The translations under genes were made by a program, and so were the position numbers. From the NCBI GenBank assembly GCA_028704635.1, contig JAQWFB010000002.1, forward strand, positions 64,693 through 128,692: DNA of 64,000 nt. The letters run 5' to 3'. The stretch is from Candidatus Shapirobacteria bacterium. GTDB taxonomy: Bacteria > Patescibacteriota > Microgenomatia > UBA12405. Shown here piece by piece: positions 40,472 to 60,988 of the stretch. The first letter of the stretch is position 1. Every line of letters starts with the position of its first letter. The notes under the pieces are model-generated. The model saw only the letters and a program-made list of their open reading frames with translations, did not search any database and was not told the origin of the DNA.

Positions 40472-40640
40472 ATTATTATATTAATTATTAATATATATAA
40501 ACCATGTATAAATCATATAATTTTGAACCTAAATCATTATCACCGCAAAAAAAATTTAATCTTAATCAGATGGCTGAAAGATTAGTTCCATTTTTAATCA
40601 TTGCTACCACCTTTGTTTGGCTCTGGAAATAGTCCTTTTT

Positions 40641-41099
40641 ATGACCGCCCCCATCATTGTCTCCTATCAAAACTGGCTCAAATCCAAGTCCTACTCTGAG
40701 GCCACCATTCGCAATTATCTTGCCGACCTCAAAAAATATTTTCTCTTCACTAATTCCAATGTTGATCAAGTCACCGACAAAATTTTCGATCAAGACAACT
40801 TGTCTTCCTATTTCCAAAACATCAACCAAGACTCCAACTACAAACGTTTTCTTGCTTCTCTTTCTAAATTCTTCCAATTTGCCTTAGACCAACACCTAAT
40901 TTCTGTCAATCCTTTCTCCAAAGCCCTTAAAGTTGAACCCGAAATTGATCTCGAAGATGTTATCAAACTATATCAACAACAATTAGAGACCAAAAATTTT
41001 TCTCTTTCGACTATTCGAAACTATATCAATGACATTCATCAATTTATTAATTGGGCACAAAATGAAAGTCGCCCTGTTAAGGAAGATGTCACTAAGTGA
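40641..41099 (+). CDS. Protein made of two phage-integrase N-terminal SAM-like (core-binding) domains, with no catalytic domain.
   Basis: YQNWLKSKSYSEATIRNYLADLKKYFLF and LYQQQLETKNFSLSTIRNYINDIHQFINWAQ match the [YF]..L...S..T...Y...L..F..F pattern of the XerC/D N-domain. The ORF track opens at TTG 40617; ATG 40641 is preferred. Confidence 0.5.
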   Translation: MTAPIIVSYQNWLKSKSYSEATIRNYLADLKKYFLFTNSNVDQVTDKIFDQDNLSSYFQNINQDSNYKRFLASLSKFFQFALDQHLISVNPFSKALKVEPEIDLEDVIKLYQQQLETKNFSLSTIRNYINDIHQFINWAQNESRPVKEDVTK

Positions 41100-47100: not shown

Positions 47101-50100
47101 CTTTAATCCAAAATTATCCATTAATTATGAAAAGTGCCTCTGGAACCTACGGTGGCGCTATTCGATATGACACTCTTGGTGGAGAATTTATGACCATGGC
47201 CACTAAAAATTCTGCTTCAAAATTATTATTTGCCACCGGTTTTGATCTTACCGCCAGCCAAGGTTCTAGCAATATTCTTCCTACCACTGTTGGCCTAGCT
47301 ATTTACAACAATAATGTCGGCATCGGCACAACTAATCCAACTTCAAAATTAACAGTTGCTGGTAATGGTAATTTCACTGGCAATCTCTCTGTTGGTGGAA
47401 CAGTCACTCTCTCATCCTCTGTTGCCTCTAATACTAGTGACACCACTGCTTTAATGATTAATGGTAGTAATGTAGTTACCAAAAGAACTCTTGGTGATCT
47501 AGCTTTTCAAAATAATGCTTCTCTTGGTTGGATTGCTAAAACAGCTTCAGGTAACTTAACAATTGGCACTGGTACTACTCTTAACTTCACTGGTATTAAT
47601 GGTTTAACCACTGCCAATGTTGGTTCTTCTCAAATTACTTTTAGTTTAGGTGGTTTCCTTTCTCAAAATACTGATATTGGTTTCTCTGGTTTCTCTCTTA
47701 GTTTTTCTGATGGTGGTAATACTTTAGTTTCATTTTCTTCTACTGGTAATACTTTCTATAATCCAACTACCTTTACTTCTAGTGGTGATGTATCTATTGC
47801 TTATGATTTGAATTTTACTAATTCAAATAATTCAAATATTAATACTGCTGGTCCTTTCTCTATTAATGCTGGTGAAGTCTTTAATTCTAGTAATTTAACT
47901 CTCCAAACTTATAACTCTGGAAAAATAATTCTTAATTCTAGTAATCTTTACACTGATGGCACCTATTTCGGTATTGGTACTACCAATCCAACCAGCACTC
48001 TTAGTGTTAATGGTAATGCTGATATTAATAATTTAGTTATTGATGGCACTTCTGGCACTGGATTAAATATCTCTAATAACAGTCTTACCACAGATATTAG
48101 TCTTCAGAATGGTGAAACTATTGATAATGACACTAATGGAAGAATTAACTTCTCTATTAGTGATCTTTATCTTAATAGTAGTATTTTCTTAACTTCAACT
48201 AGATTATTCCAAGCTGGTAATGGTACCGTTACCACTCCCGCTTATTCCTTCTCTTCTGACACTAATACTGGCATATACCGTATTGGTGAAGATAATATTG
48301 GTGTTGGTACTAGCGGAATTTTACGTCTTACTGTAGCTGGTAATGGTAATGTTGGTATTACTAAAAATCTTAATGTGGGTGGCACCTTAACCACCACTAC
48401 TCTTAAAGCTACCAATGCTCAAGATACAACCAAAGTTACTAATTTAAATGCTGACTTGTTAGATGGTAATGATTCCAGTGTTTTTACCACTCATAATGAA
48501 GTGACTGATTTAGGAACAGTTACTTTTTCCTCAGGTTCAGCTGTTACCACTGCCACCTTTATTACTGAATTAGAAAACAAAGGTGCTTTTGATAATTATC
48601 ACAGTATAATGAAAGCTAGTTGGGATTATTCCGGCAATAGCGATATTACTGACACTGGTTTCGGAACTTTCGAATTAGCAGGATGTGTTGTTGAAACTTG
48701 GACAGATGATTCAAGCGATGTCACTAGAGGTAATATCACTGTTCGAATCACTAGACCAACTACTGGATCAGGAGGAGGTCAAATTTTGGTTTATAACGAC
48801 CAAGGATCAACCTATAGTCCCGGGTGGAGACAAATTTGGAATTCTAGTACTGACGGTTCCGGTTCTGGCCTTGATGCTGATTTATTAGACGGTCTTCATT
48901 CAACTGCTTTTGAAGTCCCATTAACCTTTACTAATGGTTTAACCAGAAGCAGTAATGATGTTCATTTTGGTGGTGCTCTTACTGAAAATACCAGATTAAA
49001 CATTGGCAATACCGAAGTTATGTTCTTCAAATATGCTAATGGCAATGTCGGTATCGGAACGACTAACCCATTAGCCAAATTAAATGTTTATGGTCAAAGT
49101 TTATTTGGAACTACTAGAACCGGAGTTGGAGCTGCCAGTTCTGTTATAAATTTAGGGTCAGATGAATATATTAATTTCGCATGGAGTACGAGTTACCCAA
49201 CTGGTAATTATCATAGAATTGGTAAAGATAGAACTTTTGATAATTATGCTCTATCCTATATTTCTACCGGAGCCGACGCCACTACTAATCTAGCACATGT
49301 ATTCCGAACCACCAACACTGATTCAGCATTAGCAATTACGGCTGGTGGTAATATTGGTATCGGTACCACCGCTCCAGGCTACAAACTTGATGTTTCTGGT
49401 ACCGGTCGTTTTACTTCTAATTTAACAGTCGGTGGCACTTTAGCACTAACCCAAGGTGCTGCTAATGGTTATATTTTACAATCCGATGCTAATGGTAACG
49501 CTAAATGGATTGTTCCCTATGGTGTTGGTGGTACTAATAGTCTTTCTGCTGGTACTGATATTTCTATTACTTCTGTTGGTATTGGTCGAACCATCAACAA
49601 CACTTCTACTTTATCCACTGTTACTGGACGAGGATCTTCTACTTCTACTATGCTTTCTCTTCTTGGTGGAGCTTACTTTGGTACTGCTGGTGCTACTCAA
49701 GGTGTGTGGAAAGCTAATGGAACAGTGGGAATTGGGACTACTAATCCAAGCGGTGGAAAACTTCAAATATTTGGAGAAGGTGCAGCTAATGGTTTAAGTA
49801 TTTATAACGGCACCGGTGACACACTCAGATTATACCGAGTCAATAACGTAGGTATTCTAAGCAGAGGCGGAGTCGATACTGCCGGAATTGCCATTAATGT
49901 TTCTGGCAACGTCGGCATCGGTACAACTAATCCAGGAGTAAAATTAACAGTCACTAGGGGAGGGGCAATTTATGACGCCGCTCCAACCCTCGGCAGTGGC
50001 ACTGTTGGAGTATTTTCACTACTCTCTGGTAATGGTCTTTATGGGTTGTATAGCGGTATTTCCTCAAACGGCGACACCTGGCTTCAAAGTCAGAGGAATG

Positions 50101-53100
50101 ACGCCACTACTGCTGCATATAATATATTACTTAATCCCAGTGGTGGTAATATCGGCATCGGCACAACTAATCCTCTTTATAAGCTTCACGTTTCTGGTGA
50201 TGCTTTAATTTCAACTCGATTAGGTATTGGAGTTACCAATGCTTCTTATGCGTTAAATGTTTCTGGTAATGGTAATATTACTGGCAAATTAAACATTGGT
50301 ACCACCACTACCACCACTTCTCTTAATTTAACTAATACGGCAGTTGGTGGTTCTTCTATTGCTGCTTTCTTAAGTGGTAATAGTGGTTTAATTGGTTACA
50401 TCAGTACAGTTGGTTGGGATAAGAATACCGCTGATGATTACACCTCTTGGACACTTCAAGCCGATGGTGCTAACGGTTCTTCGATTACCTCTGGGTCTAC
50501 AGTTAATTTCGCTCATGGCACTAATATCAGTTTAGTTAAATCTGGTAATACCATTACTATTAATAATACTGCTTCTCCTTACACTGCTTCTAATGGTTTA
50601 TCTTTGGTTGGTCAAGATATTAGACTTGGCGGCACCTTAACTCAAAATACCGATATTGGTTTCTCTGGTTTCTCTCTTAGTTTTTCTGATGGTGGTAATA
50701 CTTTAGTTTCATTTTCTTCTACTGGTAATACTTTCTATAATCCAACTACCTTTACTTCTAGTGGTGATATATCTATTGCTTATGATTTGAATTTTACTAA
50801 TTCCACTGCTTCTTATATTCGATCTCAAGCTCCTCTATATATTCAAACAGAAAGTCCATATGCTAATTTAGATCTTAACTTAACTGCTGCTAATGCCGGC
50901 CAAATCTATTTAAATTCAAATGTTCAGGCTATGGCTAATTTAACTGTTGGTGGTACCTTCACCTCAGTTGGTTCCACTAATTTAGTCACTAATCTTAATG
51001 CTCAATATCTTAATGGCATTTCTTCTAATGGTTTTGTTGGTATTGGCCAAACTGGTAATTTCATTACTACACTTACCAACGGCACTGATATTAATATCAC
51101 TGGTTCTGGGACTAGTAGAACTATTAATAATACTTCTACCTTATCCACTGTTACTGGACGAGGATCTTCTACTTCTACTATGCTTTCTCTTCTTGGTGGA
51201 GCTTACTTTGGCACTGCTGGTGCTACTCAAGGTGTTTGGAAGGCTAATGGTACAGTTGGAATTGGGACGACTGCTCCAGGATACAAACTGGATATAATCA
51301 ATAATTCAGCCACTCAATTACGAGTCGCATCAGGCGTAGGGCAATTGCAAGGTGGAATTAGATTTGGAAATTACGATGCAACTCAAACCGCTGATATTTT
51401 ATTTACAGCCTCAGGACAAAACAGTTTAGATATTAGAACAAATTATAGTAGTACAAGCAATAAGATTACATTAAGCCCAGGCACTGTCACAGCAATGACT
51501 TTATTGGGCTCCGGTTATGTCGGTATCGGTATTAATCCACTCTATAAACTTCATGTGTCTGGTGATGCTTTAATCTCTACTCGATTAGGCATTGGAGCCA
51601 CTAATGCCAATTTTGCTTTAAATGTTGTTGGTAATGGTAATTTCACCGACTCTTTAAGTGTTGGAAAAACCTTAACCACCACCACCCTTAAAGCTACTAA
51701 TGCTCAAGACACTACCGTTATTACTAATTTAAATGCTGATTATTTAGATGCCCAAAATGGAAGTTATTATGACCAGCGAGTCTACACTAGCACTAATAAT
51801 TATTTAGGTGGTTATTATGTTAGTGGTGGAAGCGAAAAACCAAATAATACTATTTTTGGTGCTGGAAAATTAAAGCTAGCCATGTTGTCGGGTACTAATC
51901 TTGGTTTTGGTGGTAGCTGGAACGATGTTTTATGGTTAAGTTCTTATACCGGCGGTGATGTTAAAGGAAGTTACGCCATCATTGCCGACAAATATTCTGA
52001 TAATCTTTATTTCTCTAGACAAGACTATGATAGTGGTACTTGGGGCACAGGTAATAAATTATGGCATTCTAATAATGATGGTATCGGTTCTAGCCTTAAT
52101 GCTGATTTATTAGATGGTCTTCATGCATCTGCTTTTCTAACTACTCTAACTGGTGGCACCGACATCTCTATCACTGGTTCTGGTGTTGGTCGAACCATTA
52201 ATGACACTTCTACTTTATCCACTGTTACTGGACGAGGATCTTCTACTTCTACTATGCTTTCTCTTCTTGGTGGAGCTTACTTTGGCACTGCTGGTGCTAC
52301 TCAAGGTGTTTGGAAGGCTAATGGTACAGTTGGGATTGGAACCACCAATCCTCTTCAAAAGCTTCAAGTCGCCGGAGATATTAATATAGAAAGTGGATCT
52401 GGAATAAGAATTAATAACACTGCTACTTCTGGGTATTATCTCCGAGGCAATGGCACTAGATTTGTTTCTTCAGGTATCCAAGCCGCAGATGTTCCAACAT
52501 TAAACCAAGACACTACCGGTTCTGCAGGCACATTATCACGCGAAGACAACCGAACTATTTCACCAAGTGAATTAACTGCTGGAAAATTAAAATTCGGTTT
52601 CACTTCCTACACCAATAACGATACCGGCCCTTATGCAGACTTCTTACATTTTAGATCCTATACTGATGCTACAGGTGGTAATGACAACCTTTTAGTCTTA
52701 AACAAGACTGATTTTGGCATGAGGTTATACCAACAAACTTGGGGCAGTGCTTCTGCATATTCTACTTACAAAGATATAGCCTTAGTCGATAACGGTGCAG
52801 CTTTAAATTATCTTCCAAAATTTTCTGGAGTTGGCACTAATGTGAGAGTAACCAATTCCTCAATCTTCGACAATGGCAACGTCGGCATTGGCACTACTAA
52901 TCCAAGTTATAAACTAGACATTCAAAATACTAGTACTAGTATGGCTGTTAATATAGGATCGGTAGCTCAAACTCTATACAGCGATCTAGTTTTACACACC
53001 AATGGTGGTTCTGGTGAAATATTTAAAGCTGGTTCCGCTTACACTTCTTGGGGTGGTCCCTCATCTCTTAATATTTATAACAGCTCTGGCCCAATTGCTT

Positions 53101-56100
53101 TCCATTCCAACGGTACTGTTAATTCTATGTTTTTATCCACTGCCGGTAACTTAGGTATCGGTACTACTGCTCCAACCTCTAAATTACATGTCATTGGTAA
53201 CGGTAATATCACTGGTAATTTAACAATCGGTGGCACAGCTACCATCCCCAGAATTTTTATTAATAGAACCAGTAATACCGCTTCTGGTTTAAGTTGGTAC
53301 AGTCCTTCTTATACAGCTTGGTCAGAATATATGGGTCCAGCTGGCACAGCTTCCCAAGGACCAACAGGTAATATTACTGCTCCAACAGGAACATTAGTTA
53401 CTACTTGGGGTTTACGTAGTTTTATTGAAAATGCTAGTGGATATGGTTGGACATGGGAATCTGGAACAAGTGGCACCACCGCCCCCTCAATCGTAGCCGA
53501 ACTTTCATCCAATACTGGCAATTTTAAAACTATTGGAGCTGGAAATTTTGGCGGCAATCTTACTGTAGCCGGTGAAACTTATCTTAACGGTACTGTTCTC
53601 GAAGGAGACTCAAAAACCATGTTCCGTTATTCTGATAGTTATCTTAGACTCAACGAAGACAACGATTTTGGTAATGGTATCTGGACTGGAAATAGTAACT
53701 ATATGACTGGATCAGGATATATATCTCTTGGTTCAAACGGCGGCACAACCACTGGATCAATGTATTTATACGGCGGTGCTTACACCGGCACAAACTTAAT
53801 TAAACTTGATTCCAGTAGCACTTCTGCTATTTCTTATTTCAATGCCGGCAACGTCGGCATCGGCATCACCAATCCTCTTTATAAATTATCCGTCGGCACT
53901 TCCATCGGTGGTGATATTAATGGTAATTTAATGGCCCTTAGATTTTTAGACATTGGCAACACTCGTTATGGTTTCATCCCAAACAACACAGCATCCAATA
54001 AAAATTCTTTGTCTCTCACTTACACTGGTTCCATCAGATTTAATTACAATGACATCAGTAACTCTCATATCATTGCCGGTCCTGCCTCTCGTATCCAAAG
54101 TTTTTCTAATGGTCTTTTACTCGGCGTCAGTTCTACTACCACCGGCAATGTTGCTGGTTGGGATAATGATCTTTTCTTAAAAACGAATGGCAACGTCGGC
54201 ATCGGCACCACTGCTCCAGGAAGCAAATTAGATGTTGACGGAAATATTACCCAATCAGTCACTCATGGTAATAATATGAAATTATGGTTATCTGCAGCCA
54301 GAAATGGTAGTGGAACTGGAGAAATTGGTCTCTATTCATGGATTAGTGAACCAGGTATGACTTGGACTGGAGGGGGTATTGCTCGCAATATGTACAATAA
54401 TACTAGTTTTCCAAGAGTAAACACGGCACTATCTGGACAAATGTTACATTTCACCGAATCTGGAAACATTGAATTCGTTCTTACTAATACTTCAGGAACA
54501 CAAATTACCCCTATGACCATCCAATACAATAGTGGCAACGTCGGCATCGGCACAGCTAGTCCAAATCAAAAACTAGTTGTCACCGGAGGAAATATTGCTA
54601 TAGAGCAGAATTATCAATTTAATTTAAGCGTTGGTGATATTGGAGCTGCCTATTTAACTTATCCAAATTCTACAATAGGAGCAAAGCTTTATAGTTATTA
54701 TGATATCAACCTAACGACAAGATCAGGCGGTGGACTTACTATTGATGGTGCCACCGGCAACGTCGGTATTGGCACCACTGCTCCTAGAAGCAAACTAGAA
54801 GTCGTTTCTGGTACTCCAAATACCGATGCTGATTTATCTGGTACTGCTGGCAGTTTCAATTCTGCCACTCCAACTGGTCAAAGTTCAACTTTAAGTATAG
54901 AAAGTAATGATACTATAGCTGTTAATACTGGAGGTGTTCTTGGTTTTGGTGGTCGATACTCAGGCACTGCCTACGCCAATTGGGCCTCAATCAAAGGTTT
55001 AAAAGCCGATGGAACTTCTGGAAACTATGGTGGTTATCTTTCATTTTGGACTCGTCAAACCGGAGCTGGAAGTGTCGAAAGAATGAGAATTTCAGATGCT
55101 GGCAACGTCGGCATCGGCACAACTAATCCTGGAACCAATCTTGACCTTAATGGCACTTTCCGCCTCAATAACAATATATACCTCAATTCCGGCATTGCTA
55201 ATTTTTCAAATCTTGGTGATGTTGTTAATTTTAATAAATACCTCGGATCTAATACTACTCCCTCTTGGTCTACTGGGACTGCTGGTGGTACTGCTCGTTA
55301 CTCTCATTCTTCTGTTCTCTATAATGGTAAAATCTACTCTTGGGGAGGATCTAATGGTGCTCCTTTAAACACTGTTGACATCTATGATATTGCCTCTAAT
55401 ACCTGGTCTACTGGTACTGCTGGTGGTACTGCTCGTAATTATTATTCTTCTGTTCTCTATAATGGTAAAATCTACTCTTGGGGAGGATCTAATGGTTTTT
55501 CTTTAAACACTGTTGACATCTATGATATTGCCTCTAATACCTGGTCTACTGGTACTGCTGGTGGCACTGCTCGTTACGCTCATTCTTCTGTTCTCTATAA
55601 TGGTAAAATCTACTCTTGGGGAGGATATAATGGTTCCTTTTTAAACACTGTTGACATCTATGATATTGCCTCCAATACCTGGTCTACTGGTACTGCTGGT
55701 GGCACTGTTCGTTACCAACATTCTTCTGTTCTCTATAATGGTAAAATCTACTCTTGGGGAGGATTTAATGGTTCTAGTTTAAACACTGTTGACATCTATG
55801 ATATTGCCTCCAATACCTGGTCTACTGGGACTGCTGGTGGTACTGCTCGTTACTCTCATTCTTCTGTTCTCTATAATGGCAAAATATATTCTTGGGGAGG
55901 ATCTAATGGTTCTAGGTTAAACACTGTTGACATCTATGATATTGCCTCTAATACCTGGTCTACTGGGACTGCTGGTGGCACTGCCCGTTACGGTCATTCT
56001 TCTGTTCTCTATAATGGCAAAATATATTCTTGGGGAGGAACTAATGGTTCTTCTTTAAACACTGTTGATATTTATGATATTGGTAATCGTCAAAACATTC

Positions 56101-59100
56101 TTTCCATTCAAGAAAATGGACAAGATATGCTTAATTTCACCACTAATTCCACTCTCTTCACAAACTCTGGTCGCTTCTCCATTATGGGTGGCAACGTCGG
56201 CATTGGCACCACCGCTCCTTCTGCCCGCCTCACTGTCCTTGGCGATGGTAGTTCCGCCACTTCCGATTTTACTTTATTAAACAACAATGGTTCCGTTAAT
56301 CTCGAAATCCGCACTGGACTAACTGCTCTCTTTAATACTTTTATTGGAGTTGGAGTTGGTAGTTCCAACACCACCGGCCACTACAACACCGCTAATGGCA
56401 GTTATTCTCTTGCTTACAACACCACCGGCTACTACAACACCGCTAATGGTTTTCAATCTCTCTACTCCAACACCACCGGCTACTACAACACCGCTAATGG
56501 TTTTCAATCTCTCTACTCCAACACCACCGGCCACTACAACACCGCTAATGGCAGTTATTCTCTCTTTTCCAACACCACTGGCCGCGACAACACCGCTAAT
56601 GGTTTTTATTCTCTTTTTTACAACACCACCGGCTCCAACAACACCGCTAATGGTTTTTATTCTCTTTTTTACAACACCACCGGCTCCAACAACACCGCTA
56701 ATGGTTTTTATTCTCTTTTTTACAACACCACCGGCTCCAACAACACCGCCATGGGTTACAATTCTCTTGGTTCCGGCACCACCCTAAATTCCAACATCGG
56801 TCTTGGTTATTATGCTGGCTATAAACTCTCCGTTGGTTCCAGTAATATTTTCATCGGTAACAATAATGGTGCTACCGGTTCTTATGACAACCGTCTCTAT
56901 ATTGGTAATGGTTCAAATCCAATTATTTATGGTGATATGTCCACTGGAAACATCGGCATCGGCACCACCAATCCCCTCGAAAAATTAACAATTTCAGGAA
57001 GTGGTGCTGACGTACTTAGTCTAAAAGGTAGTGCTGGTACTAGATTTATTTTTAATGAGACTTGGAGTGGAACAGCTGATATTTTAGGAATTCGCAACAG
57101 TAACACTTCTAATCCTCAAGTTGTTCTTGATTGGAATGGCAACGTCGGCATCGGCACCGCCAACCCTCTTTTTAAAACTGAAATCTATGGCACTACACAA
57201 CTAACAGGTAATTTAACTGATGCTGGTAATCGAGGTAGTATGCTTGCTCTTAATGCAGCTGATTCAAATTATGGTAGTGGTGGAGCTTTACTTTTTGGTA
57301 ATCAACAATCCGATATAGCTAACTCTATCGGTTGGGCTGCAATTAAAGGATTTTTAATAAACGGAAATGGTAATACAACAGGTGATCTTGCTTTTTCTAC
57401 TAGAAACTCAACAGCAGATACTGCCTTAACCGAAAGAATGAGAATTTTAGCAACTGGCAATGTCGGCATCGGCACTGCTAATCCAGGAACTTTATTAAAT
57501 ATCTCCCAATCTATTCCAACCGGCACAGGAGCAATACCTACAAATAGCGGTTTACTTTTAGATTCAAATTCAAATAATTACCTTACCTTTAGAAATACTT
57601 CAGATAACGGATCTTATGCTGGTTTACAATTTTTAGATAATAATGTCGGGGGTTATATTGCTTTTAGAAATGCTATTGCCGGAGGAGCACATACTGACAG
57701 TATGGTATTAGGAACCTATCAAGATTTCTATTTCCAAACTGGAGCAAGTGGTATCGTGGATGGCAAAACTGATGTAATGACAATAAAACAAGGTGGTAAT
57801 GTCGGCATCGGTACCACTAATCCTGGCACCCGATTTGCTGTTGCTGGTCTTACTGGTACTACTGCTGGAAGCTACCTCCGTTATTACAACAACGATTTTT
57901 ATTACTATTCTTCCTCTGCTCGTTATAAAGATAATATTGAGGTTTTTAATGATGATTTCTCTAAAATCCTTAATATTGAACCTAAAATCTTCACCGACAA
58001 AGTCTCAGGCGAAAGAAATATCGGTCTTATCGCCGAAGAAATGGATGCCGCCGACCTAAAACACTTAGTCACTTATAAAAATGGCTTACCTGACACTGTT
58101 GAATATCAACTCGTTTCTGTCTACCTTCTTCAACTCGCCAAACAACAAAAACTCCAACTTGATAATCTTAATAATGACCTCACTTTAACTTCCACTGGCC
58201 AAATTAATGTCAATATGAATATTTCCGATGAAGTCCTCTCTTCTCTTGGTTATAATGGTGCCAAAAATGAAATCGAATCTGCCACCTATTCCATTACTGA
58301 TACTTTAGGCAACACCGTTTCTCGTATTTCTCAATTCAGCGAAATCGCTTCCGCTAAAATCAAAACTGGTCTCCTTTCCGCCACCAACATCATTACTAAA
58401 AACATGGTCGCTGAAAAAATCGTCTCTCCAAAAGCCACCATCAATCATCTTATTTCTACTGACATCCAAACCACTTCTGTCACCACCGAAGAACTAAATG
58501 CTCTACGATCTACGATCAACGATCTAACAGCTAACACTGCCACCGTCTCCACTCTTTATGCTGACAATATTATTTCCAAAGAAGGTTCCATTGGTGAATT
58601 AATGACCGCCAAAGTCAGTGCCCTCCGTGACGAACTTAAACAACTTGTAGAGACGCAACATGATGCATCTCCATCTGGAACCATCACTGGATCATCAATT
58701 CTTTCTCAATCTTCCGGCTGGGCAATGAATATTGCCAGTGATTCGGCAAAAATTACTGGTGACCTCGAGCTCGGCAACAGTCTCATTGTCGGCGCTAAAC
58801 TCACTGTCAACGGTGACACCCAACTCGGCAATGCCTTTATTTCTGGCACTTTCACTGCCGGCGAAATCGCCATTAAAGACAACTTTATCGAAACCACCAA
58901 CACCGCTCTCTATATCCAGCCATCACAAACTGGTTCAGTCCACATCATGGGCGACACTTTAGTCATCGCTGAAGACGGCAACATTCAAATCAATGGCAAC
59001 CTCACTGTTTCTGGCTCTCTCATGGCTAACCTCATTGTTGCCGACCAAATCCAAGCCAACAAATTAACTGCCAATGAAGTCTCTTCTAATGAAATAAAAA

Positions 59101-59438
59101 TTGCCACTGATTCCGCTCAAACCATCATTGCCGAATCTGGTTTTGGTGCCATTGCCACTTCTTCCGCCAAATTAACTTCCAACGCCACCGCCGGCACCGC
59201 CACTCTCCCAACTGGCAAAACCGAAATCGTCATTACCAATAATAAAATCACCGCCAACTCCATGGTCTACCTCACCCCAGTCGGTTCCACCAACAACCAA
59301 GTTCCCTACATCAAAACCAAAATGGTTTATTCCGAAGCTGAACTGCTCGCTGATCCAACTTTACAAAATTACTTCACCATCGCTCTTGATAATTATCTTG
59401 ACAAAGATATCGATATCAATTGGTGGATTATTAATTAA
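41115..59438 (+). CDS. Giant (6107 aa) membrane-anchored surface protein. Domains in order are an SAM-like N-domain, a TM, about 5000 aa of tail-fibre-like beta-helix repeats, six Kelch repeats, eight NTANG (YadA-head-like) repeats, an S74 intramolecular chaperone domain and a C-terminal WWIIN module.
   Basis: One uninterrupted 18.3-kb frame. The N-terminus is FNEYAAFLKSTNLSDASIQRKLSSLASFQKFL. The TM is IVIFSLFAISAGLGFTLY. Recurring motifs are GNVGIGTTNP..KL.V.G and NLNA[DQ][YL]L[DN]G. The chaperone region is SSARYKDNIEVF...IGLIAEEMDAADLKHLV...YQLVSVYLLQLAKQQ. The protein ends DIDINWWIIN. Confidence 0.85.
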   Translation: MDLNKLFNQSRFNEYAAFLKSTNLSDASIQRKLSSLASFQKFLIKKKYVSFVETHDRASLLSISEHADSLIPKTSLFSNLKSKIKLPPVIDDLRSNFLFRYIVIFSLFAISAGLGFTLYRQAVLQSQQNLAYSTASAMITGGRFLSFQGRLTDTAGNPIISSTSIVFKLYPSVGSGTTLYTSQTGNSQTVVPDENGIFSVTIGRSHGTTIPSSVFTENAEVWLEITAGGETMNPRQQIATVGYALNSETLQGLPPSASGTKNTVLVIDGLGNLNLGETSPTIKSTSGTLGIEGQAVLIKASDGSGGNITINPDSNGVINLITEGTGATGFINATNANLASGNLFNATINNLNRGYNFINFSNYSVGTSIVSRFSVDAYGNTIIGNNLTIGGTFVSVGSTNLVTKLNSDLLDGHHSSYFLSVGDTGSLPYVNDATNTTLTRSGTSGPYTLGLNLNNTNTWTAIQNLSAGATISNLSVGGTFISVGSTNLVTNLNADLLDGNNSTYFVNIGQTGNFITTITGVGISVSPTSGTSRTLTNMGIMNATNGTLTRSGSIGSYTLGLNLNNSNTWTAIQNLSAGATISNLSVGGTFISVGSTNLVTNLNADYLNGLPSSSFVGIGSTGNFITNLTNGVGITITGSGSSRNIAFDYGASLLATGNKIGLNFGSINTWTAKQTFGNAAIGGTLALTQGAQDGYILTSDASGNSYWAPNTGVGTIYFAGSGLTLTGTTFKLGGALTENANLTIGNTSAFFINSTTGNVGIGTTNPNRALEIMKQVDGEVQLRLGNGPTTFWDLGRDGSDGYFNIKDQNGAKRLVINDISGNVGIGTTNPTSKLTVAGNVNISTSLNVGTSLVVGTSIELSSSGNRSLSYYDSSTNGYFTQMQTTATGGYGTYGPVSGDWALYNRFSGANTRGWIWQLGTVNVAGLNGKGDFQNAGNLTVGGTLSIGSVPTASDNNTVLTSVGGVVSSINTSAWDKNASDDLTTSTNLFVIKADSGTAETLNVGNTINFVGGLGLGSTVSATDTITFNIGSSAGISVNTDTIGINIGLTGLGFSGTKLINTGLVGVSNSTLTRIGSNGNYTVGLNLANINTWTALQTFGNATVGGTLTMTGTNVGTGTTALFIASNGTVTKRALGTMAFDSGTYDNYNHWKLQTNSNGTTNVLTGNTVNFINGIGISLVQSGSTITVNNIGTGTTYAAGVGLSLSSSNIFSIDYDSTLDLNGNKISLNTGNANTWTGLQTFNATGAPFAVGSSVLVTNLNAQYLNGISSNGFVGIGQTGNFITTITGVGISVSPTSGTSRTLTNMGIMNATNGTLTRSGSIGSYTLGLNLGSNNSWSNGIGVSGTTNLTNALNVGGTVYFGSYVGIGTASPNKQLQIGSAANNSSIYNDYIGSINNMVLESRDSNDSGAFVFRSNSDVGTSDLVQITRLGYVGIGTTAPGYKLDVSGTGRFTSNLTVGGTLALTQGAANGYILTSDTSGNAKWLPNTGIGTTYAAGVGLSLSSSNIFSIDYDSTLDLNGNKISLNTGNANTWTGLQTFNATGAPFAVGSNTLVTNLNAQYLNGISSNGFVGIGQTGNFITTLTAGTDISITGSGVGRTINDTSTLSTVTGRGSSTSTMLSLLGGAYFGTAGATQGVWKANGTVGIGTTNPIYGKVEITTTASNTGGLSLYRGTGSTARSWITSNDVWLMQRSTNDNAGIAIDASGYVGIGTTAPGYRLDVSGTGRFTSNLTVGGTVSLTGTNVGTGTTALFIASNGTVTKRALGTMAFDSGTYDNYNHWKLQTNSNGTTNVLTGNTVNFINGIGISLVQSGSTITVNNVGAGTTYAAGVGLSLSSSSVFSINFGSANTWTGLQTFNATGAPFAVGSSVLVTNLNAQYLNGISSNGFVGIGQTGNFITTITGVGISVSPTSGTSRTLTNMGIMNATNGTLTRSGSIGSYTLGLNLGSNNSWSNGIGVSGTTNLTNALNVGGTAYFGSYVGIGTASPSSKLDVAGAISLIQNYPLIMKSASGTYGGAIRYDTLGGEFMTMATKNSASKLLFATGFDLTASQGSSNILPTTVGLAIYNNNVGIGTTNPTSKLTVAGNGNFTGNLSVGGTVTLSSSVASNTSDTTALMINGSNVVTKRTLGDLAFQNNASLGWIAKTASGNLTIGTGTTLNFTGINGLTTANVGSSQITFSLGGFLSQNTDIGFSGFSLSFSDGGNTLVSFSSTGNTFYNPTTFTSSGDVSIAYDLNFTNSNNSNINTAGPFSINAGEVFNSSNLTLQTYNSGKIILNSSNLYTDGTYFGIGTTNPTSTLSVNGNADINNLVIDGTSGTGLNISNNSLTTDISLQNGETIDNDTNGRINFSISDLYLNSSIFLTSTRLFQAGNGTVTTPAYSFSSDTNTGIYRIGEDNIGVGTSGILRLTVAGNGNVGITKNLNVGGTLTTTTLKATNAQDTTKVTNLNADLLDGNDSSVFTTHNEVTDLGTVTFSSGSAVTTATFITELENKGAFDNYHSIMKASWDYSGNSDITDTGFGTFELAGCVVETWTDDSSDVTRGNITVRITRPTTGSGGGQILVYNDQGSTYSPGWRQIWNSSTDGSGSGLDADLLDGLHSTAFEVPLTFTNGLTRSSNDVHFGGALTENTRLNIGNTEVMFFKYANGNVGIGTTNPLAKLNVYGQSLFGTTRTGVGAASSVINLGSDEYINFAWSTSYPTGNYHRIGKDRTFDNYALSYISTGADATTNLAHVFRTTNTDSALAITAGGNIGIGTTAPGYKLDVSGTGRFTSNLTVGGTLALTQGAANGYILQSDANGNAKWIVPYGVGGTNSLSAGTDISITSVGIGRTINNTSTLSTVTGRGSSTSTMLSLLGGAYFGTAGATQGVWKANGTVGIGTTNPSGGKLQIFGEGAANGLSIYNGTGDTLRLYRVNNVGILSRGGVDTAGIAINVSGNVGIGTTNPGVKLTVTRGGAIYDAAPTLGSGTVGVFSLLSGNGLYGLYSGISSNGDTWLQSQRNDATTAAYNILLNPSGGNIGIGTTNPLYKLHVSGDALISTRLGIGVTNASYALNVSGNGNITGKLNIGTTTTTTSLNLTNTAVGGSSIAAFLSGNSGLIGYISTVGWDKNTADDYTSWTLQADGANGSSITSGSTVNFAHGTNISLVKSGNTITINNTASPYTASNGLSLVGQDIRLGGTLTQNTDIGFSGFSLSFSDGGNTLVSFSSTGNTFYNPTTFTSSGDISIAYDLNFTNSTASYIRSQAPLYIQTESPYANLDLNLTAANAGQIYLNSNVQAMANLTVGGTFTSVGSTNLVTNLNAQYLNGISSNGFVGIGQTGNFITTLTNGTDINITGSGTSRTINNTSTLSTVTGRGSSTSTMLSLLGGAYFGTAGATQGVWKANGTVGIGTTAPGYKLDIINNSATQLRVASGVGQLQGGIRFGNYDATQTADILFTASGQNSLDIRTNYSSTSNKITLSPGTVTAMTLLGSGYVGIGINPLYKLHVSGDALISTRLGIGATNANFALNVVGNGNFTDSLSVGKTLTTTTLKATNAQDTTVITNLNADYLDAQNGSYYDQRVYTSTNNYLGGYYVSGGSEKPNNTIFGAGKLKLAMLSGTNLGFGGSWNDVLWLSSYTGGDVKGSYAIIADKYSDNLYFSRQDYDSGTWGTGNKLWHSNNDGIGSSLNADLLDGLHASAFLTTLTGGTDISITGSGVGRTINDTSTLSTVTGRGSSTSTMLSLLGGAYFGTAGATQGVWKANGTVGIGTTNPLQKLQVAGDINIESGSGIRINNTATSGYYLRGNGTRFVSSGIQAADVPTLNQDTTGSAGTLSREDNRTISPSELTAGKLKFGFTSYTNNDTGPYADFLHFRSYTDATGGNDNLLVLNKTDFGMRLYQQTWGSASAYSTYKDIALVDNGAALNYLPKFSGVGTNVRVTNSSIFDNGNVGIGTTNPSYKLDIQNTSTSMAVNIGSVAQTLYSDLVLHTNGGSGEIFKAGSAYTSWGGPSSLNIYNSSGPIAFHSNGTVNSMFLSTAGNLGIGTTAPTSKLHVIGNGNITGNLTIGGTATIPRIFINRTSNTASGLSWYSPSYTAWSEYMGPAGTASQGPTGNITAPTGTLVTTWGLRSFIENASGYGWTWESGTSGTTAPSIVAELSSNTGNFKTIGAGNFGGNLTVAGETYLNGTVLEGDSKTMFRYSDSYLRLNEDNDFGNGIWTGNSNYMTGSGYISLGSNGGTTTGSMYLYGGAYTGTNLIKLDSSSTSAISYFNAGNVGIGITNPLYKLSVGTSIGGDINGNLMALRFLDIGNTRYGFIPNNTASNKNSLSLTYTGSIRFNYNDISNSHIIAGPASRIQSFSNGLLLGVSSTTTGNVAGWDNDLFLKTNGNVGIGTTAPGSKLDVDGNITQSVTHGNNMKLWLSAARNGSGTGEIGLYSWISEPGMTWTGGGIARNMYNNTSFPRVNTALSGQMLHFTESGNIEFVLTNTSGTQITPMTIQYNSGNVGIGTASPNQKLVVTGGNIAIEQNYQFNLSVGDIGAAYLTYPNSTIGAKLYSYYDINLTTRSGGGLTIDGATGNVGIGTTAPRSKLEVVSGTPNTDADLSGTAGSFNSATPTGQSSTLSIESNDTIAVNTGGVLGFGGRYSGTAYANWASIKGLKADGTSGNYGGYLSFWTRQTGAGSVERMRISDAGNVGIGTTNPGTNLDLNGTFRLNNNIYLNSGIANFSNLGDVVNFNKYLGSNTTPSWSTGTAGGTARYSHSSVLYNGKIYSWGGSNGAPLNTVDIYDIASNTWSTGTAGGTARNYYSSVLYNGKIYSWGGSNGFSLNTVDIYDIASNTWSTGTAGGTARYAHSSVLYNGKIYSWGGYNGSFLNTVDIYDIASNTWSTGTAGGTVRYQHSSVLYNGKIYSWGGFNGSSLNTVDIYDIASNTWSTGTAGGTARYSHSSVLYNGKIYSWGGSNGSRLNTVDIYDIASNTWSTGTAGGTARYGHSSVLYNGKIYSWGGTNGSSLNTVDIYDIGNRQNILSIQENGQDMLNFTTNSTLFTNSGRFSIMGGNVGIGTTAPSARLTVLGDGSSATSDFTLLNNNGSVNLEIRTGLTALFNTFIGVGVGSSNTTGHYNTANGSYSLAYNTTGYYNTANGFQSLYSNTTGYYNTANGFQSLYSNTTGHYNTANGSYSLFSNTTGRDNTANGFYSLFYNTTGSNNTANGFYSLFYNTTGSNNTANGFYSLFYNTTGSNNTAMGYNSLGSGTTLNSNIGLGYYAGYKLSVGSSNIFIGNNNGATGSYDNRLYIGNGSNPIIYGDMSTGNIGIGTTNPLEKLTISGSGADVLSLKGSAGTRFIFNETWSGTADILGIRNSNTSNPQVVLDWNGNVGIGTANPLFKTEIYGTTQLTGNLTDAGNRGSMLALNAADSNYGSGGALLFGNQQSDIANSIGWAAIKGFLINGNGNTTGDLAFSTRNSTADTALTERMRILATGNVGIGTANPGTLLNISQSIPTGTGAIPTNSGLLLDSNSNNYLTFRNTSDNGSYAGLQFLDNNVGGYIAFRNAIAGGAHTDSMVLGTYQDFYFQTGASGIVDGKTDVMTIKQGGNVGIGTTNPGTRFAVAGLTGTTAGSYLRYYNNDFYYYSSSARYKDNIEVFNDDFSKILNIEPKIFTDKVSGERNIGLIAEEMDAADLKHLVTYKNGLPDTVEYQLVSVYLLQLAKQQKLQLDNLNNDLTLTSTGQINVNMNISDEVLSSLGYNGAKNEIESATYSITDTLGNTVSRISQFSEIASAKIKTGLLSATNIITKNMVAEKIVSPKATINHLISTDIQTTSVTTEELNALRSTINDLTANTATVSTLYADNIISKEGSIGELMTAKVSALRDELKQLVETQHDASPSGTITGSSILSQSSGWAMNIASDSAKITGDLELGNSLIVGAKLTVNGDTQLGNAFISGTFTAGEIAIKDNFIETTNTALYIQPSQTGSVHIMGDTLVIAEDGNIQINGNLTVSGSLMANLIVADQIQANKLTANEVSSNEIKIATDSAQTIIAESGFGAIATSSAKLTSNATAGTATLPTGKTEIVITNNKITANSMVYLTPVGSTNNQVPYIKTKMVYSEAELLADPTLQNYFTIALDNYLDKDIDINWWIIN
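41267..41294. repeat. REP-like palindrome (family 2) lying in-frame within the 5' end of the giant ORF.
   Basis: GTAGAGACGCACGATCGCGCGTCTCTAC encodes ...FVETHDRASLL.... Confidence 0.8.
55258..56085 (+). repeat. Six tandem 138-bp coding repeats (Kelch-like blades) inside the giant gene.
   Basis: The unit WSTGTAGGTARYSHSSVLYNGKIYSWGGSNG.PLNTVDIYDIASNT occurs six times, with above 90% nucleotide identity between units. Confidence 0.85.
56373..56770 (+). repeat. Eight tandem 51-bp coding repeats (YYNTANGFQSLYSNTTG; Hep_Hag / YadA-head-like).
   Basis: Direct repeats ...accaccggc[tc]actacaacaccgctaatgg[tc]... read in sequence. Confidence 0.8.
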
Positions 59439-59488: not shown

Positions 59489-60988
59489 ATGGCCCAACAA
59501 TTTACTCAAGAACAAATTGAAAAACTTAAAAGTCTCGGCATCGAAGTCGACTCAAAAGACGTCATTACCAGCGAAAACCAACTCGCCGACCTAACCACCC
59601 CTCAGCCAACTGAAACACCAAATCTCCCTCCCTTACCAAAAGAAGAAGTTAATTCGAATCCCACCCAACCAGAAAGTCTCCCTGTCAAGGGAGATGTCGA
59701 TTTATCGACAGAGGGTTTTAAACCAGAAACCGACAGTTTTAAACAACCAATGGTAGAAGTTGAACCAACCGAACCCGAAGAAAATTCCCCCTCCTTGTCA
59801 AGGGAGGGGTTAGGGGTGGGTTTAACCCAACCTGAAAGTCTCCCTGTCAAGGGAGATGTCGATTTATCGACAGAGGGTTTTAAACCAAAGGAAGATCCCA
59901 ACCAAAAAAAGATCCCCACCGTTTTCCCTCTTCTCTCCATTTCCGGCCTCACTCTTCTTTCCTTCGGCGGTCTTGTTCTTTTAAAAGGTTCTGGAACACA
60001 AAATGATTTACCCCCTCAAAATACTTCTGCAAAAAACAATCCTGCTTTGCAGGACATCACCCCAACACAAGTACCTAAATCTATCCAACATTATCTTTTA
60101 ACATCACAACAATACTTTAGCCAAGCTGTTTCTCAACAGTCAACTGATAATTCAGCCTCTGTCGAATCACTCAATAATTCAATTATAGCCGCAACTGAGG
60201 CCATAAAAGAATTTCCAGACGACTATCGTGGCTATCAACAGCGTGGCAACATTTATCAGGCTCTTACTGATTCAAAACCCGAACTTTTAGATCAATCTAT
60301 ATCCGATTTCGCCTCTGCTTTTAAATTAAATTCTCAATCAGCCGAAGTTACCCGTTCCCTCGCCTCTCTTTATGCCAAAAAAGGTGATGCCAACAAAACT
60401 ATTCTCTTTCTAAACCAAACTGTTGCTCTTGAACCAACCAAAGCTCAAAATTTTTATGATCTTGCTAAAATTCAGCAACAAGCCGGTCTTCTTTCCCAAG
60501 CTCTAGATACCTATACTAAACTAACCACCCTGGTCACCGATCCCACCCAAAAAACTCAAGTCGAATCCGAAAAAGCTGCTCTCGAAAAACTGGTTGCTCA
60601 AAATCCAAATTCTTCAAAAACTCCAATCGAGGAAAATCAAACTCTACCTCCCGTCACTGCTCCGTCCTCTCTCGACTCTCCTACTATTCAAGCCATGGGT
60701 GAAGGCGGTCTTATTATTGCCGCTCCCGAAGAGGACAAATCAATTTCTGTCACCAATCAAACCGAGTCTAATTCTCTTTCTGGCACCTCCATTCTTTCTT
60801 CTGGTCAAAAAGAAATTACCATCCCCAACGACAACATTTCTTCTACTTCCCAAGTATACGTCACTATTACAAAAGGTGGCAAAAACCAAAATCTTCAAGT
60901 CATTTCCAAATCAGAAAAATCATTCGTCGTCGGTCTCGACTCCCCCATTTCCGAAGACATCGAATTCAAGTGGTGGATAATTAATTAA
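59489..60988 (+). CDS. Bitopic membrane TPR-repeat protein that shares its C-terminal WWIIN module with the giant protein.
   Basis: 499 aa. An N-terminal region carries a 2x direct repeat (TQPESLPVKGDVDLSTEGFKP). A TM (LLSISGLTLLSFGGLVLL) is followed by TPR-like helices (YRGYQQRGNIYQAL..., AEVTRSLASLYAKKGD..., AQNFYDLAKIQQQAG...). The C-terminus ...EDIEFKWWIIN aligns with the last roughly 60 aa of the giant protein. Confidence 0.6.
   Translation: MAQQFTQEQIEKLKSLGIEVDSKDVITSENQLADLTTPQPTETPNLPPLPKEEVNSNPTQPESLPVKGDVDLSTEGFKPETDSFKQPMVEVEPTEPEENSPSLSREGLGVGLTQPESLPVKGDVDLSTEGFKPKEDPNQKKIPTVFPLLSISGLTLLSFGGLVLLKGSGTQNDLPPQNTSAKNNPALQDITPTQVPKSIQHYLLTSQQYFSQAVSQQSTDNSASVESLNNSIIAATEAIKEFPDDYRGYQQRGNIYQALTDSKPELLDQSISDFASAFKLNSQSAEVTRSLASLYAKKGDANKTILFLNQTVALEPTKAQNFYDLAKIQQQAGLLSQALDTYTKLTTLVTDPTQKTQVESEKAALEKLVAQNPNSSKTPIEENQTLPPVTAPSSLDSPTIQAMGEGGLIIAAPEEDKSISVTNQTESNSLSGTSILSSGQKEITIPNDNISSTSQVYVTITKGGKNQNLQVISKSEKSFVVGLDSPISEDIEFKWWIIN

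What the first reader, a model, noticed from the sequence alone, without database searches (positions are those of the whole stretch)
57890..58180. The tail-fibre S74 intramolecular chaperone domain is internal, with about 430 aa following it
SSARYKDNIEVF...NIGLIAEEMDAADLKHLV...VEYQLVSVYLLQLAKQQ carries the Ser-Lys dyad motif (S..[RK]..K) and conserved helices of the C-terminal intramolecular chaperone of endosialidases and tail fibres. In those proteins the domain is strictly C-terminal and auto-cleaves after trimer folding. Here a long extension follows, comprising a coiled-coil-like segment, a beta-helix-like GD/NG-rich segment and the WWIIN module. Autoproteolysis at the Ser near residue 5595 would release a fragment of about 510 aa that itself carries the shared C-terminal module. 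This is an unusual two-product arrangement.
Basis: partly seen in the sequence, partly recalled or inferred. Interest (0 to 1): 0.65.

Follow-up and report, generated by a model that had tools for sequence, protein, structure and literature searches.

The report
Self-cleaving chaperone domain inside giant fibre
A 6,107-residue cell-surface fibre protein of a tiny uncultured (CPR) bacterium has a phage-type self-cleaving folding domain followed by a conserved 430-residue tail, and hundreds of related proteins share this layout, so the tail is probably cut off after it has helped the fibre assemble.

Summary
ORF 41115..59438 (+, 6107 aa) has a Peptidase_S74 / ICA (intramolecular chaperone auto-processing) domain at residues 5600-5678. 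The Ser5600/Lys5605 dyad is present and 429 residues follow. The Pfam match is marginal (23.2 bits, cut-off 22). A profile of the family's S74 regions matches solved tail-fibre and MYRF ICA domains (E 1e-17 to 5e-8).

This is a bacterial chromosome (LeuRS, MreB, tRNAs), most likely Candidatus Shapirobacteria. The protein has a single hydrophobic segment, near its N-terminus, so it is probably a membrane-anchored giant fibre, not a phage tail fibre.

The arrangement is not a one-off. The 430-aa tail is a C-terminal cassette found in 807 protein clusters. Where enough upstream sequence exists, 88 of 97 proteins carry a self-cleaving chaperone directly before it. That chaperone is either S74 (35 proteins) or the unrelated phi29-type Peptidase_G2 (53 proteins), and the catalytic residues are invariant. 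The cassette is 50-87% identical between proteins whose fibres differ. Its last domain folds like tailspike C-terminal beta-sandwiches.

Best reading: a removable trimerisation module is shed as a 54-kDa fragment. Cleavage is inferred, not shown. An internal ICA domain already has a precedent in MYRF.

The parts
41115..59438 (+). Giant ORF, 6107 aa: tail-fibre-like modular surface protein
   Evidence: Single uninterrupted ORF. It contains 40 G-[IVL]-G-[TIN] ('GIGT'-type) motifs and a Kelch propeller. Relatives of up to 5546 aa share the C-terminal cassette, and several show the same N-terminal opening by eye.
41403..41471 (+). Only strongly hydrophobic segment (residues 97-119); presumed N-terminal membrane anchor
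   Evidence: Kyte-Doolittle scan: the only 19-residue windows above 1.8 start at residues 97-101, and none occur later in the protein. The topology (rest of the protein outside the cell) is inferred.
55266..56082 (+). Kelch beta-propeller encoded by 5.9 near-identical 138-bp tandem repeats, upstream variable part of the fibre
   Evidence: Pfam Kelch families, E 4.5e-63 to 1e-7. Tandem Repeats Finder score 1347, 92% matches.
57912..57929 (+). Catalytic motif S-S-A-R-Y-K: Ser5600 nucleophile and Lys5605 base; predicted scissile bond Ser5599|Ser5600 (between nt 57911 and 57912)
   Evidence: Position. S and K are invariant in alignment A3 and in 48 of 48 S74 domains of cassette-bearing proteins. 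The spacing equals endoNF S911/K916 and MYRF S587/K592 (PMC8326128). The GA-1 released chaperone chain 3gud_A starts at the aligned Ser.
57912..58148 (+). Peptidase_S74 / ICA intramolecular chaperone domain (residues 5600-5678), ending in a long helix
   Evidence: PF13884 at 23.2 bits against a cut-off of 22. Family profile against PDB tail-fibre and MYRF ICA domains, E 1e-17 to 5e-8. AlphaFold2 pLDDT is 68-90 here, with a predicted helix at residues 5664-5688.
58149..59435 (+). Conserved C-terminal cassette ('extension', residues 5679-6107)
   Evidence: 807 cluster representatives at E<=1e-3, 360 at <=1e-10 and 74 at <=1e-30. In all but two of the 150 listed hits the match ends within 11 residues of the protein's C-terminus; the two exceptions have their best stretch ending before the terminal module. 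50-87% identical to proteins whose chaperone domain and fibre differ. No match by sequence to any solved structure.
58326..58661 (+). Helical, possibly coiled-coil segments of the cassette (residues about 5738-5849)
   Evidence: AlphaFold2 helices at query positions 179-191, 233-242 and 267-290, with low confidence in the monomer model. The coiled-coil character is inferred.
58701..59018 (+). Short beta-helix-like segment (residues about 5863-5968)
   Evidence: Sub-threshold Bactofilin PF04519 match (21.2 bits against 27.9). It recurs in 14 of 18 cassette sequences. AlphaFold2 places beta strands here.
59163..59435 (+). Terminal beta-sandwich ending ...INWWIIN ('WW module', residues about 6017-6107)
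   Evidence: AlphaFold2 pLDDT 90-97. Foldseek against viral models gives 22 hits at E<=1e-3 (best 1e-5), including 'K1 capsule-specific polysaccharide lyase C-terminal domain' proteins; pectate-lyase tailspikes follow at weaker E-values of about 1e-2. Foldseek against PDB: Pam1 tailspike and K1 lyase, probability about 1, E 0.03-0.3.
59489..60988 (+). Downstream gene: 499-aa protein with one hydrophobic segment, TPR and the same WW module at its C-terminus (about nt 60728-60985)
   Evidence: BLASTP E 4e-11 to the giant's last 86 residues. TPR_17 match. Hydrophobic windows starting at residues 145-147. The same neighbour follows the giant gene in L002, L004 and L005.

Best explanation
Residues 5600-5678 are a genuine S74/ICA intramolecular-chaperone protease domain. 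It sits in a chromosomal giant surface-fibre protein of a Shapirobacteria-like CPR bacterium, probably anchored in the membrane by its N-terminus.

The domain is the first part of a conserved three-part C-terminal cassette:
1. a self-cleaving chaperone;
2. helical segments plus a short beta-helix;
3. a tailspike-type beta-sandwich ending in WWIIN.

Proposed mechanism, all steps inferred. After export, the cassettes of three chains associate through the ICA helix bundle, the helices, the beta-helix and the terminal sandwich. This sets the register and nucleates folding of the trimeric fibre from the C-terminus towards the N-terminus. Ser5600 and Lys5605 then cut the Ser5599|Ser5600 bond. A 508-aa (54-kDa) cassette fragment is shed. 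The variable region just upstream becomes the free distal tip of a 577-kDa anchored fibre. On this reading the cassette is mainly an enlarged, removable assembly module, not a second effector.
For: Shown:
- The S74 domain and its dyad are present.
- The dyad is invariant in 48 of 48 related S74 domains, although those domains are only 24-36% identical to the window's.
- The extension occurs at the C-terminus of 807 protein clusters of very different length.
- Of 97 such proteins with more than 600 aa before the terminal module, 35 have S74 and 53 have a Peptidase_G2-type domain directly upstream.
- The G2-type module matches the phi29 gp12 auto-chaperone (6qz9_A 1.4e-7; 3gqh_A 1e-6, whose chain begins at the aligned D-F-A-E). 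Pfam PF11962 matches 9 of 18 members (best E 5.9e-8). D and E are invariant.
- Two unrelated self-cleaving chaperones in the same position argue that cleavage plus trimer nucleation is the selected function at this junction.
- The cassette is the best-conserved part: 50-87% identity against about 30-40% for the upstream 400 aa. That fits a constant assembly role better than variable target recognition.
- The syntenic counterpart in L002 keeps the cassette (82%) but has a different S74 subtype (33%) and different upstream domains.
- The terminal module has the fold of tailspike C-terminal domains. The literature implicates those domains in folding, trimerisation and/or host recognition (PMC10653864).
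- MYRF shows that an ICA domain can cleave with a long polypeptide behind it (PMC3742443, PMC8326128).
Against: - No experiment or proteomic evidence shows cleavage.
- The Pfam score of this sequence is only just above threshold and falls below it in a longer scan.
- Foldseek of the monomer model did not return solved S74 structures among its top 50 matches.
- A 430-aa module this strongly conserved is expensive if it is only thrown away. Its conserved surface motifs (YLTPxGSTxNQV) and a neighbouring gene with the same terminal module hint at a specific binding role. That would favour a functional second product.
- Nine of 97 cassette proteins, and P0018, have no detectable self-cleaving chaperone upstream.
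- Trimer formation by the cassette is inferred from monomer models with low confidence outside two domains.
Confidence: 0.45

Rival explanations
1. Two functional products. Autocleavage at Ser5600 yields the anchored fibre plus a 54-kDa trimeric, tailspike-like fragment that has its own job. That job could be binding a glycan or a partner through the WW sandwich, docking to the membrane TPR protein that carries the same module, capping the fibre tip non-covalently, or polymerising through its bactofilin-like beta-helix.
For: - All the evidence for cleavage applies here too.
- The cassette is under strong constraint along its whole length, with many invariant residues in the terminal sandwich.
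- The same sandwich ends a TPR membrane protein encoded immediately downstream in four loci.
- The sandwich belongs to a fold class that the literature treats as either a carbohydrate-binding or a trimerisation domain in phage depolymerases, with the role unresolved.
- A minimal form, S74 plus a short linker plus a WW-like sandwich, exists in P0033.
Against: - No enzymatic, toxin or known binding family is detected in the cassette.
- The Bactofilin match is below threshold.
- The four syntenic loci are close relatives, so synteny is weak evidence.
- In the phage examples the cleaved chaperone is regarded as waste (established knowledge, Schwarzer 2007 as cited).
Confidence: 0.3
2. No cleavage. 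The S74 (or G2) domain serves only as a trimerisation knot inside a continuous chain, and the conserved cassette is the permanent distal tip of the fibre.
For: - Cleavage has not been observed.
- The tip-like architecture of the cassette (beta-helix plus terminal sandwich) resembles the distal end of tailspikes.
- A few cassette proteins lack a recognisable self-cleaving chaperone.
Against: - The catalytic Ser and Lys (S74) and Asp and Glu (G2) are invariant across very divergent domains.
- An S587A MYRF fragment could still be expressed, purified and crystallised, so the serine is probably not needed for folding. Its conservation therefore points to catalysis.
- A receptor-binding tip would be expected to be the most variable part. 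Here it is the most conserved.
Confidence: 0.2
3. Artefact: a chance motif, or a mis-assembled or fused ORF that joins a terminal S74 domain to an unrelated downstream gene.
For: The Pfam score is marginal for the single sequence.
Against: - The same junction is found in independent assemblies: three GTDB genomes and dozens of metagenomic proteins.
- The reading frame is continuous and the boundary motif is conserved.
- The family profile hits solved ICA domains at E 1e-17.
Confidence: 0.02

Closest known systems
C-terminal intramolecular chaperone domain (Peptidase_S74 / ICA) of phage endosialidases, tail spikes and tail fibres (endoNF, phage T5 L-shaped fibre, GA-1 neck appendage, the long tail fiber distal subunit in 6f45)
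   Same: Homologous domain. Same Ser-x4-Lys dyad at the start of the domain. It follows a tail-fibre-like region, and a terminal helix is predicted.
   Different: In those proteins the domain ends the polypeptide: the matches run to within about 10 residues of the chain end. Here 429 conserved residues follow, and the host protein is a 6107-aa cellular membrane-anchored protein, not a virion component.
MYRF / MrfA membrane-bound transcription factors (internal ICA domain)
   Same: The ICA domain is internal. Self-cleavage at the Ser-Lys dyad separates an N-terminal trimer from a large C-terminal part that keeps the ICA domain (PMC3742443, PMC8326128; profile hit 7dc3_A at 5.5e-8).
   Different: - MYRF is eukaryotic.
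- Its membrane helix lies after the ICA domain and the released product is the N-terminal DNA-binding part.
- Here the only hydrophobic segment is N-terminal, so the polarity is reversed: the C-terminal part would be the free product.
- No Ndt80-type domain is present.
phi29 gp12 pre-neck appendage auto-chaperone (Peptidase_G2)
   Same: In sister proteins of this family a G2-type domain occupies exactly the position of the S74 domain, directly before the same cassette. It keeps the D-x-A-E motif that starts the released phi29 fragment.
   Different: It is unrelated in sequence and fold to S74. It is not present in the window's protein. In phi29 it is C-terminal with nothing behind it.
C-terminal beta-sandwich domains of phage tailspikes and depolymerases (K1 lyase C-terminal domain, Pam1 tailspike, K64-1 S2-4)
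   Same: The WWIIN module has this fold and the same position after a beta-helix at the chain end. These domains are linked to trimerisation and/or carbohydrate binding.
   Different: There is no sequence-level family match. Here the module lies downstream of the self-cleaving chaperone, so it would leave with the chaperone rather than stay on the mature fibre.

Membership tests
Peptidase_S74 / ICA domain (PF13884, MEROPS S74) | Sequence match to the family profile above the curated threshold | tested here: met
   23.2 bits against a cut-off of 22, E 8.6e-5, residues 5600-5648. The score is 20.7 bits in a 3107-aa scan, so the match is marginal. A family profile that includes this sequence hits solved ICA domains at 1.3e-17 to 5.5e-8.
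Peptidase_S74 / ICA domain (PF13884, MEROPS S74) | Catalytic Ser and Lys five residues apart at the N-terminal edge of the domain | tested here: met
   Ser5600 and Lys5605. These columns are invariant in 25 of 25 sequences and the motif is present in 48 of 48 domains. They are equivalent to endoNF S911/K916 and MYRF S587/K592.
Peptidase_S74 / ICA domain (PF13884, MEROPS S74) | Terminal helix able to form the trimeric coiled coil that drives trimerisation | tested here: inconclusive
   The monomer AlphaFold2 model predicts a 25-residue helix at residues 5664-5688. Trimer formation could not be modelled.
Peptidase_S74 / ICA domain (PF13884, MEROPS S74) | Fold similarity to solved ICA domains | tested here: inconclusive
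Peptidase_S74 / ICA domain (PF13884, MEROPS S74) | Trimerisation-dependent self-cleavage | not testable with these tools
   Needs expression of residues about 5400-6107 with and without S5600A or K5605A.
Phage-type C-terminal IMC arrangement (domain ends the protein) | The chaperone domain is the last domain of the polypeptide | tested here: not met
   429 residues follow. The same holds in three GTDB loci and in 45 S74-type relatives, where the gap to the terminal module has a median of 321 aa.
MYRF-type membrane-tethered factors | Transmembrane helix downstream of the ICA domain and an Ndt80-like DNA-binding domain upstream | tested here: not met
   No hydrophobic segment occurs after residue 119. 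No DNA-binding family appears in the Pfam scans.
Bactofilin (PF04519) | Profile match above the curated threshold | tested here: not met
   21.2 bits against 27.9 for the window. 14 of 18 relatives match at E<=0.1, and the window's match is below the cut-off. One relative, P0013, reaches 32.5 bits. This is treated as beta-helix resemblance only.
Tailspike C-terminal beta-sandwich (K1-lyase C-terminal-domain-like) | Structural similarity of the terminal module | tested here: met
   BFVD Foldseek gives 22 hits at E<=1e-3, best 9.7e-6, several of them named K1-lyase C-terminal domain. PDB hits 7eea and 7w1c have probability 0.95-1.0 but E 0.03-0.2. There is no sequence-family match, so this is fold-level only.

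The most novel reading that the evidence does not exclude
The cassette may be a lineage-specific assembly and release device for the giant surface fibres of Microgenomates-group CPR bacteria. A self-cleaving chaperone of either of two unrelated families is coupled to a conserved trimeric tailspike-like unit. After programmed cleavage, that unit persists as a second functional particle, for example one that docks through its WW sandwich to the co-encoded membrane TPR protein or to a glycan. One gene would then yield an anchored fibre plus a separate lectin-like or cap element, with the polarity reversed relative to MYRF.
Probability: 0.25. Interest if true: 0.75.

Novelty: new variant of a known kind. 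Interest (0 to 1): 0.58.

Why it matters
Self-cleaving intramolecular chaperones are known as throw-away C-terminal domains of phage tail spikes. The one known exception is the internal switch of the eukaryotic factor MYRF.

Here the same chemistry appears inside cellular giant proteins of CPR bacteria, always coupled to a conserved 430-residue module. S74 and G2 chaperones are swapped freely in front of that module. This gives three things:
- a concrete, testable handle on how 0.6-MDa membrane-anchored fibres of unculturable episymbionts are assembled and matured;
- a clear prediction of a 54-kDa product beginning SSARYK;
- a natural experiment on what lies downstream of an ICA domain in bacteria.

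It also flags a widespread uncharacterised C-terminal module (807 clusters) for annotation.

Tried and rejected
- Direct sequence search of the 548-aa C-terminal region against PDB found nothing. A profile of the extension alone found only chance-level hits.
- A homologue search with the S74 region alone gave no hits.
- The same search with the S74 alignment returned only proteins of 209 aa or fewer. It could not be used to measure how often S74 is internal.
A general survey of S74 position in genomes and viruses therefore could not be made.
- Foldseek of the whole 548-residue model gave only weak matches, and none to S74 structures in the top 50.
- The idea that the giant's N-terminus is homologous to the SAM-like ORF just upstream was not supported (BLASTP E 0.5). 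Pfam found nothing in the first 300 aa.
- Polymorphic-toxin logic (releasing protease plus variable C-terminal toxin) was considered and rejected. Here the C-terminal part is the conserved part and no toxin family matches.
- Literature searches found no description of this arrangement in bacteria.
Full report
**What is at the coordinates.**
The window holds one uninterrupted ORF, 41115..59438 on the + strand, of 6107 aa. SSARYK is residues 5600-5605 (nt 57912-57929). The domain runs to ...LLQLAKQQ at residue 5678 (nt 58148). Exactly 429 residues follow, ending ...INWWIIN. The given start, 57890, is one base out of frame.

Pfam PF13884 (Peptidase_S74, 'chaperone of endosialidase') matches residues 5600-5648. 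The score is 23.2 bits against a curated cut-off of 22 in a 615-aa scan and 20.7 bits in a 3107-aa scan. For the single sequence the match is therefore real but marginal.

**Is it really an S74/ICA domain?**
I aligned 25 S74 regions: the window's, its relatives, and more distant hits (alignment A3). Only four columns are invariant. Two of them are the Ser and the Lys five residues later, Ser5600 and Lys5605 in the window. The other two are the G and A of G-x-I-A-[QE]-E.

A profile of this alignment hits solved ICA domains:
- a long tail fiber distal subunit, 6f45_A (1.3e-17);
- a tail fibre, 8jov_1 (7e-14);
- human MYRF, 7dc3_A (5.5e-8);
- the phage T5 L-shaped fibre, 8hqz_d (1e-4);
- the released GA-1 chaperone, 3gud_A (0.014), whose chain begins at the aligned Ser.

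The spacing equals endoNF S911/K916 and MYRF S587/K592, which mutagenesis showed to be essential (PMC8326128). The AlphaFold2 model gives pLDDT 68-90 over the domain and a 25-residue terminal helix at residues 5664-5688. Foldseek with the monomer model did not recover S74 structures in its top 50, so the structural test is inconclusive.

**Context: not a phage.**
The window encodes leucyl-tRNA synthetase, MreB, phosphoglucose isomerase, an M16 peptidase and two tRNAs. GC content is 36%. The closest relatives are named Candidatus Shapirobacteria, Woesebacteria or Patescibacteria. A GTDB scan found the same S74 domain at 92% identity in a Shapirobacteria genome, which belongs to the Microgenomates group.

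The giant has a single strongly hydrophobic segment, at residues 97-119, and none afterwards. Several relatives open with the same N-terminal sequence and have a similarly placed hydrophobic stretch, by eye. The protein is therefore best read as an N-terminally membrane-anchored extracellular fibre built from tail-fibre-like modules. It has 40 GIGT-type motifs and a Kelch propeller.

**The extension is a conserved cassette.**
Searching residues 5679-6107 against 1.84 billion cluster representatives gave 807 hits at E<=1e-3, 360 at <=1e-10 and 74 at <=1e-30. Of the 150 best hits listed, all but two match within about 11 residues of the protein's C-terminus. Protein lengths range from fragments to 5546 aa. 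All three GTDB loci with the window's S74 subtype also carry a tail of 515-543 aa after the start of the S74 match, ending INWWIIN.

The cassette starts at a sharp, conserved boundary, L-[ST]-[LI]-T-x-T-G-Q-[IV]-N...KNEIE.

**What precedes the cassette is the key result.**
Inspection of the region just upstream showed two alternatives.
- One is S74.
- The other ('type B') has an invariant D-x-A-E motif (alignment A2).

Type B is a Peptidase_G2 domain:
- Pfam PF11962 ('IMC autoproteolytic cleavage domain') matches 9 of 18 members, best E 5.9e-8.
- The profile hits phi29 pre-neck appendage protein gp12 (6qz9_A, 1.4e-7).
- It also hits the isolated gp12 auto-chaperone (3gqh_A, 1e-6), whose chain starts at the aligned D-F-A-E.
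- It also hits the 'chaperon domain D4' of a Klebsiella tailspike (28nb_A, 3.6e-4).

I built HMMs from A2 and A3 and scanned all cassette-bearing proteins. Of 97 with more than 600 aa before the terminal module, 53 have G2, 35 have S74 and 9 have neither. The gap from the chaperone end to the terminal module has a median of 321 aa (S74) or 358 aa (G2).

All 48 S74 domains that cover the motif keep S-x4-K. D-x-[AS]-E is present in 53 of 63 G2 domains. The five exceptions printed are either fragments that start after the motif or domains whose motif my regular expression did not catch.

Two unrelated self-cleaving trimerisation chaperones in one position, both with intact catalytic residues, is the strongest available argument that cleavage at this junction is a selected function.

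**Pattern of conservation.**
Compared with the window, the cassette is 50-87% identical in 16 relatives. Their S74 domains are only 24-36% identical, apart from the near-orthologue P0042 at 92%, or belong to the other family. The 400 aa upstream give only 28-40% local identity.

The syntenic counterpart in contig L002 keeps the cassette at 82%. It has the SDRRLK subtype of S74 (33% identity) and Kelch-like repeats directly before it. The window's SSARYK subtype is closest to S74 domains that are terminal in other bacteria (P0032 and P0035-P0039, with 78-117 residues from the Ser to the end). The modules have therefore been shuffled around a constant cassette.

P0033 shows a minimal version: S74, a short helical linker, and a WW-like sandwich ending SWWIV.

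**Anatomy of the cassette.**
There is no match by sequence to solved structures. The only recurrent Pfam similarity is a sub-threshold Bactofilin match to a beta-helical stretch, in 14 of 18 sequences.

The monomer model has helices, then beta strands, then a confident terminal domain. Modelled alone, the last 90 residues form a beta-sandwich with pLDDT 90-97.

Foldseek places this sandwich with C-terminal domains of phage tailspikes and depolymerases:
- Against PDB: cyanophage Pam1 tailspike, Klebsiella K1 lyase and K64-1 S2-4, with probability 0.94-1.0 but E 0.03-0.3.
- Against BFVD: 22 matches at E<=1e-3, best 1e-5. Several are annotated 'K1 capsule-specific polysaccharide lyase C-terminal domain', and one is a collagen-repeat phage protein. 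Pectate-lyase tailspikes appear at weaker E-values of about 1e-2.

Such C-terminal domains are described as promoting folding and trimerisation and/or host recognition (PMC10653864). The cassette thus looks like a miniature tailspike end placed behind the chaperone.

**The neighbour.**
The next gene, 59489..60988, encodes a 499-aa protein with one hydrophobic segment, TPR and the same terminal module. The pair recurs in L002, L004 and L005. These are close relatives, so this is a lead, not proof of partnership.

**Mechanism.**
Shown:
- domain identity and the catalytic residues;
- cassette conservation;
- interchangeability of S74 and G2;
- the tailspike-like terminal fold.

Inferred:
- the cassettes of three exported chains associate and nucleate C-to-N folding of the fibre;
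- Ser5600/Lys5605 cut Ser5599|Ser5600;
- a 508-aa, 54.3-kDa, acidic fragment (pI 4.5) leaves, and a 577-kDa anchored fibre remains with its variable tip exposed.

MYRF shows that an ICA domain works with a long polypeptide behind it. I rate this assembly-module reading at 0.45. A non-cleaving structural knot gets 0.20. An artefact gets 0.02.

**Comparison with what is known, and novelty.**
The domain is a member of S74. The arrangement fails the 'terminal domain' feature of the phage members. It also fails the MYRF features, namely a downstream membrane helix and an upstream DNA-binding domain. It is therefore a new variant: an internal ICA (or G2) domain in bacterial giant surface proteins, with the polarity reversed relative to MYRF and coupled to a conserved uncharacterised cassette.

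Full-text searches found no description of it. That library is incomplete, so 'not found' is not proof of absence.

**Limits.**

Noticed in passing
window 59489-60988 (+): A 499-aa protein with an acidic repetitive N-terminal part, one hydrophobic segment (windows starting at residues 145-147), TPR, and the same WWIIN beta-sandwich at its C-terminus. It is encoded directly after the giant gene here and in L002, L004 and L005. It may be a docking or assembly partner.
   Followed up: partly
window 55266-56082 and 56366-56749 (+), inside the giant ORF: Near-identical DNA tandem repeats: 5.9 copies of 138 bp at 92% identity, encoding Kelch blades, and 7.5 copies of 51 bp encoding 'NTTGxYNTANGFYSLFY'-type repeats. 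Together with long duplicated blocks elsewhere in the ORF, these suggest recent repeat expansion or recombination within the gene.
   Followed up: partly
window 27598-32565 and 33268-38406 (+): Two further large proteins (1655 and 1712 aa), each with six Laminin_G_3 (concanavalin-like) domains plus DUF2341 and pentaxin or sialidase-N-like matches, lie just upstream of the giant gene. The region looks like a surface-protein island.
   Followed up: no
window 40617-41099 (+): A 160-aa ORF with two Phage_int_SAM_1-type domains and no catalytic integrase domain sits immediately before the giant gene. The giant's own N-terminus looks similar by eye, but neither BLASTP (E 0.5) nor Pfam supports a relationship.
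   Followed up: partly
P0018 (597 aa) and 9 of 97 cassette proteins: A third kind of module, neither S74 nor G2 ('DYVFEDNYEIKDFSHLQEFISMNKHLPNLPS...'), directly precedes the same cassette in P0018. Some other cassette proteins have no detectable self-cleaving chaperone.
   Followed up: no
alignment A4 member: One cassette-bearing protein fragment carries an Intein_splicing domain (E 5.5e-10). That would be an intein inside this surface-protein cassette.
   Followed up: no
L003, L004: Two GTDB genomes labelled 'uncultured Gammaproteobacteria bacterium' carry contigs with this Shapirobacteria-type giant-protein end (82-93% identity). These contigs are probably mis-binned CPR sequence.
   Followed up: no
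L001 4564-13789: On a 708-kb contig, a second giant gene (more than 4313 aa, with a Peptidase_S74 hit) lies right after the cassette-bearing gene P0009. One genome can therefore hold several such fibres in tandem.
   Followed up: no
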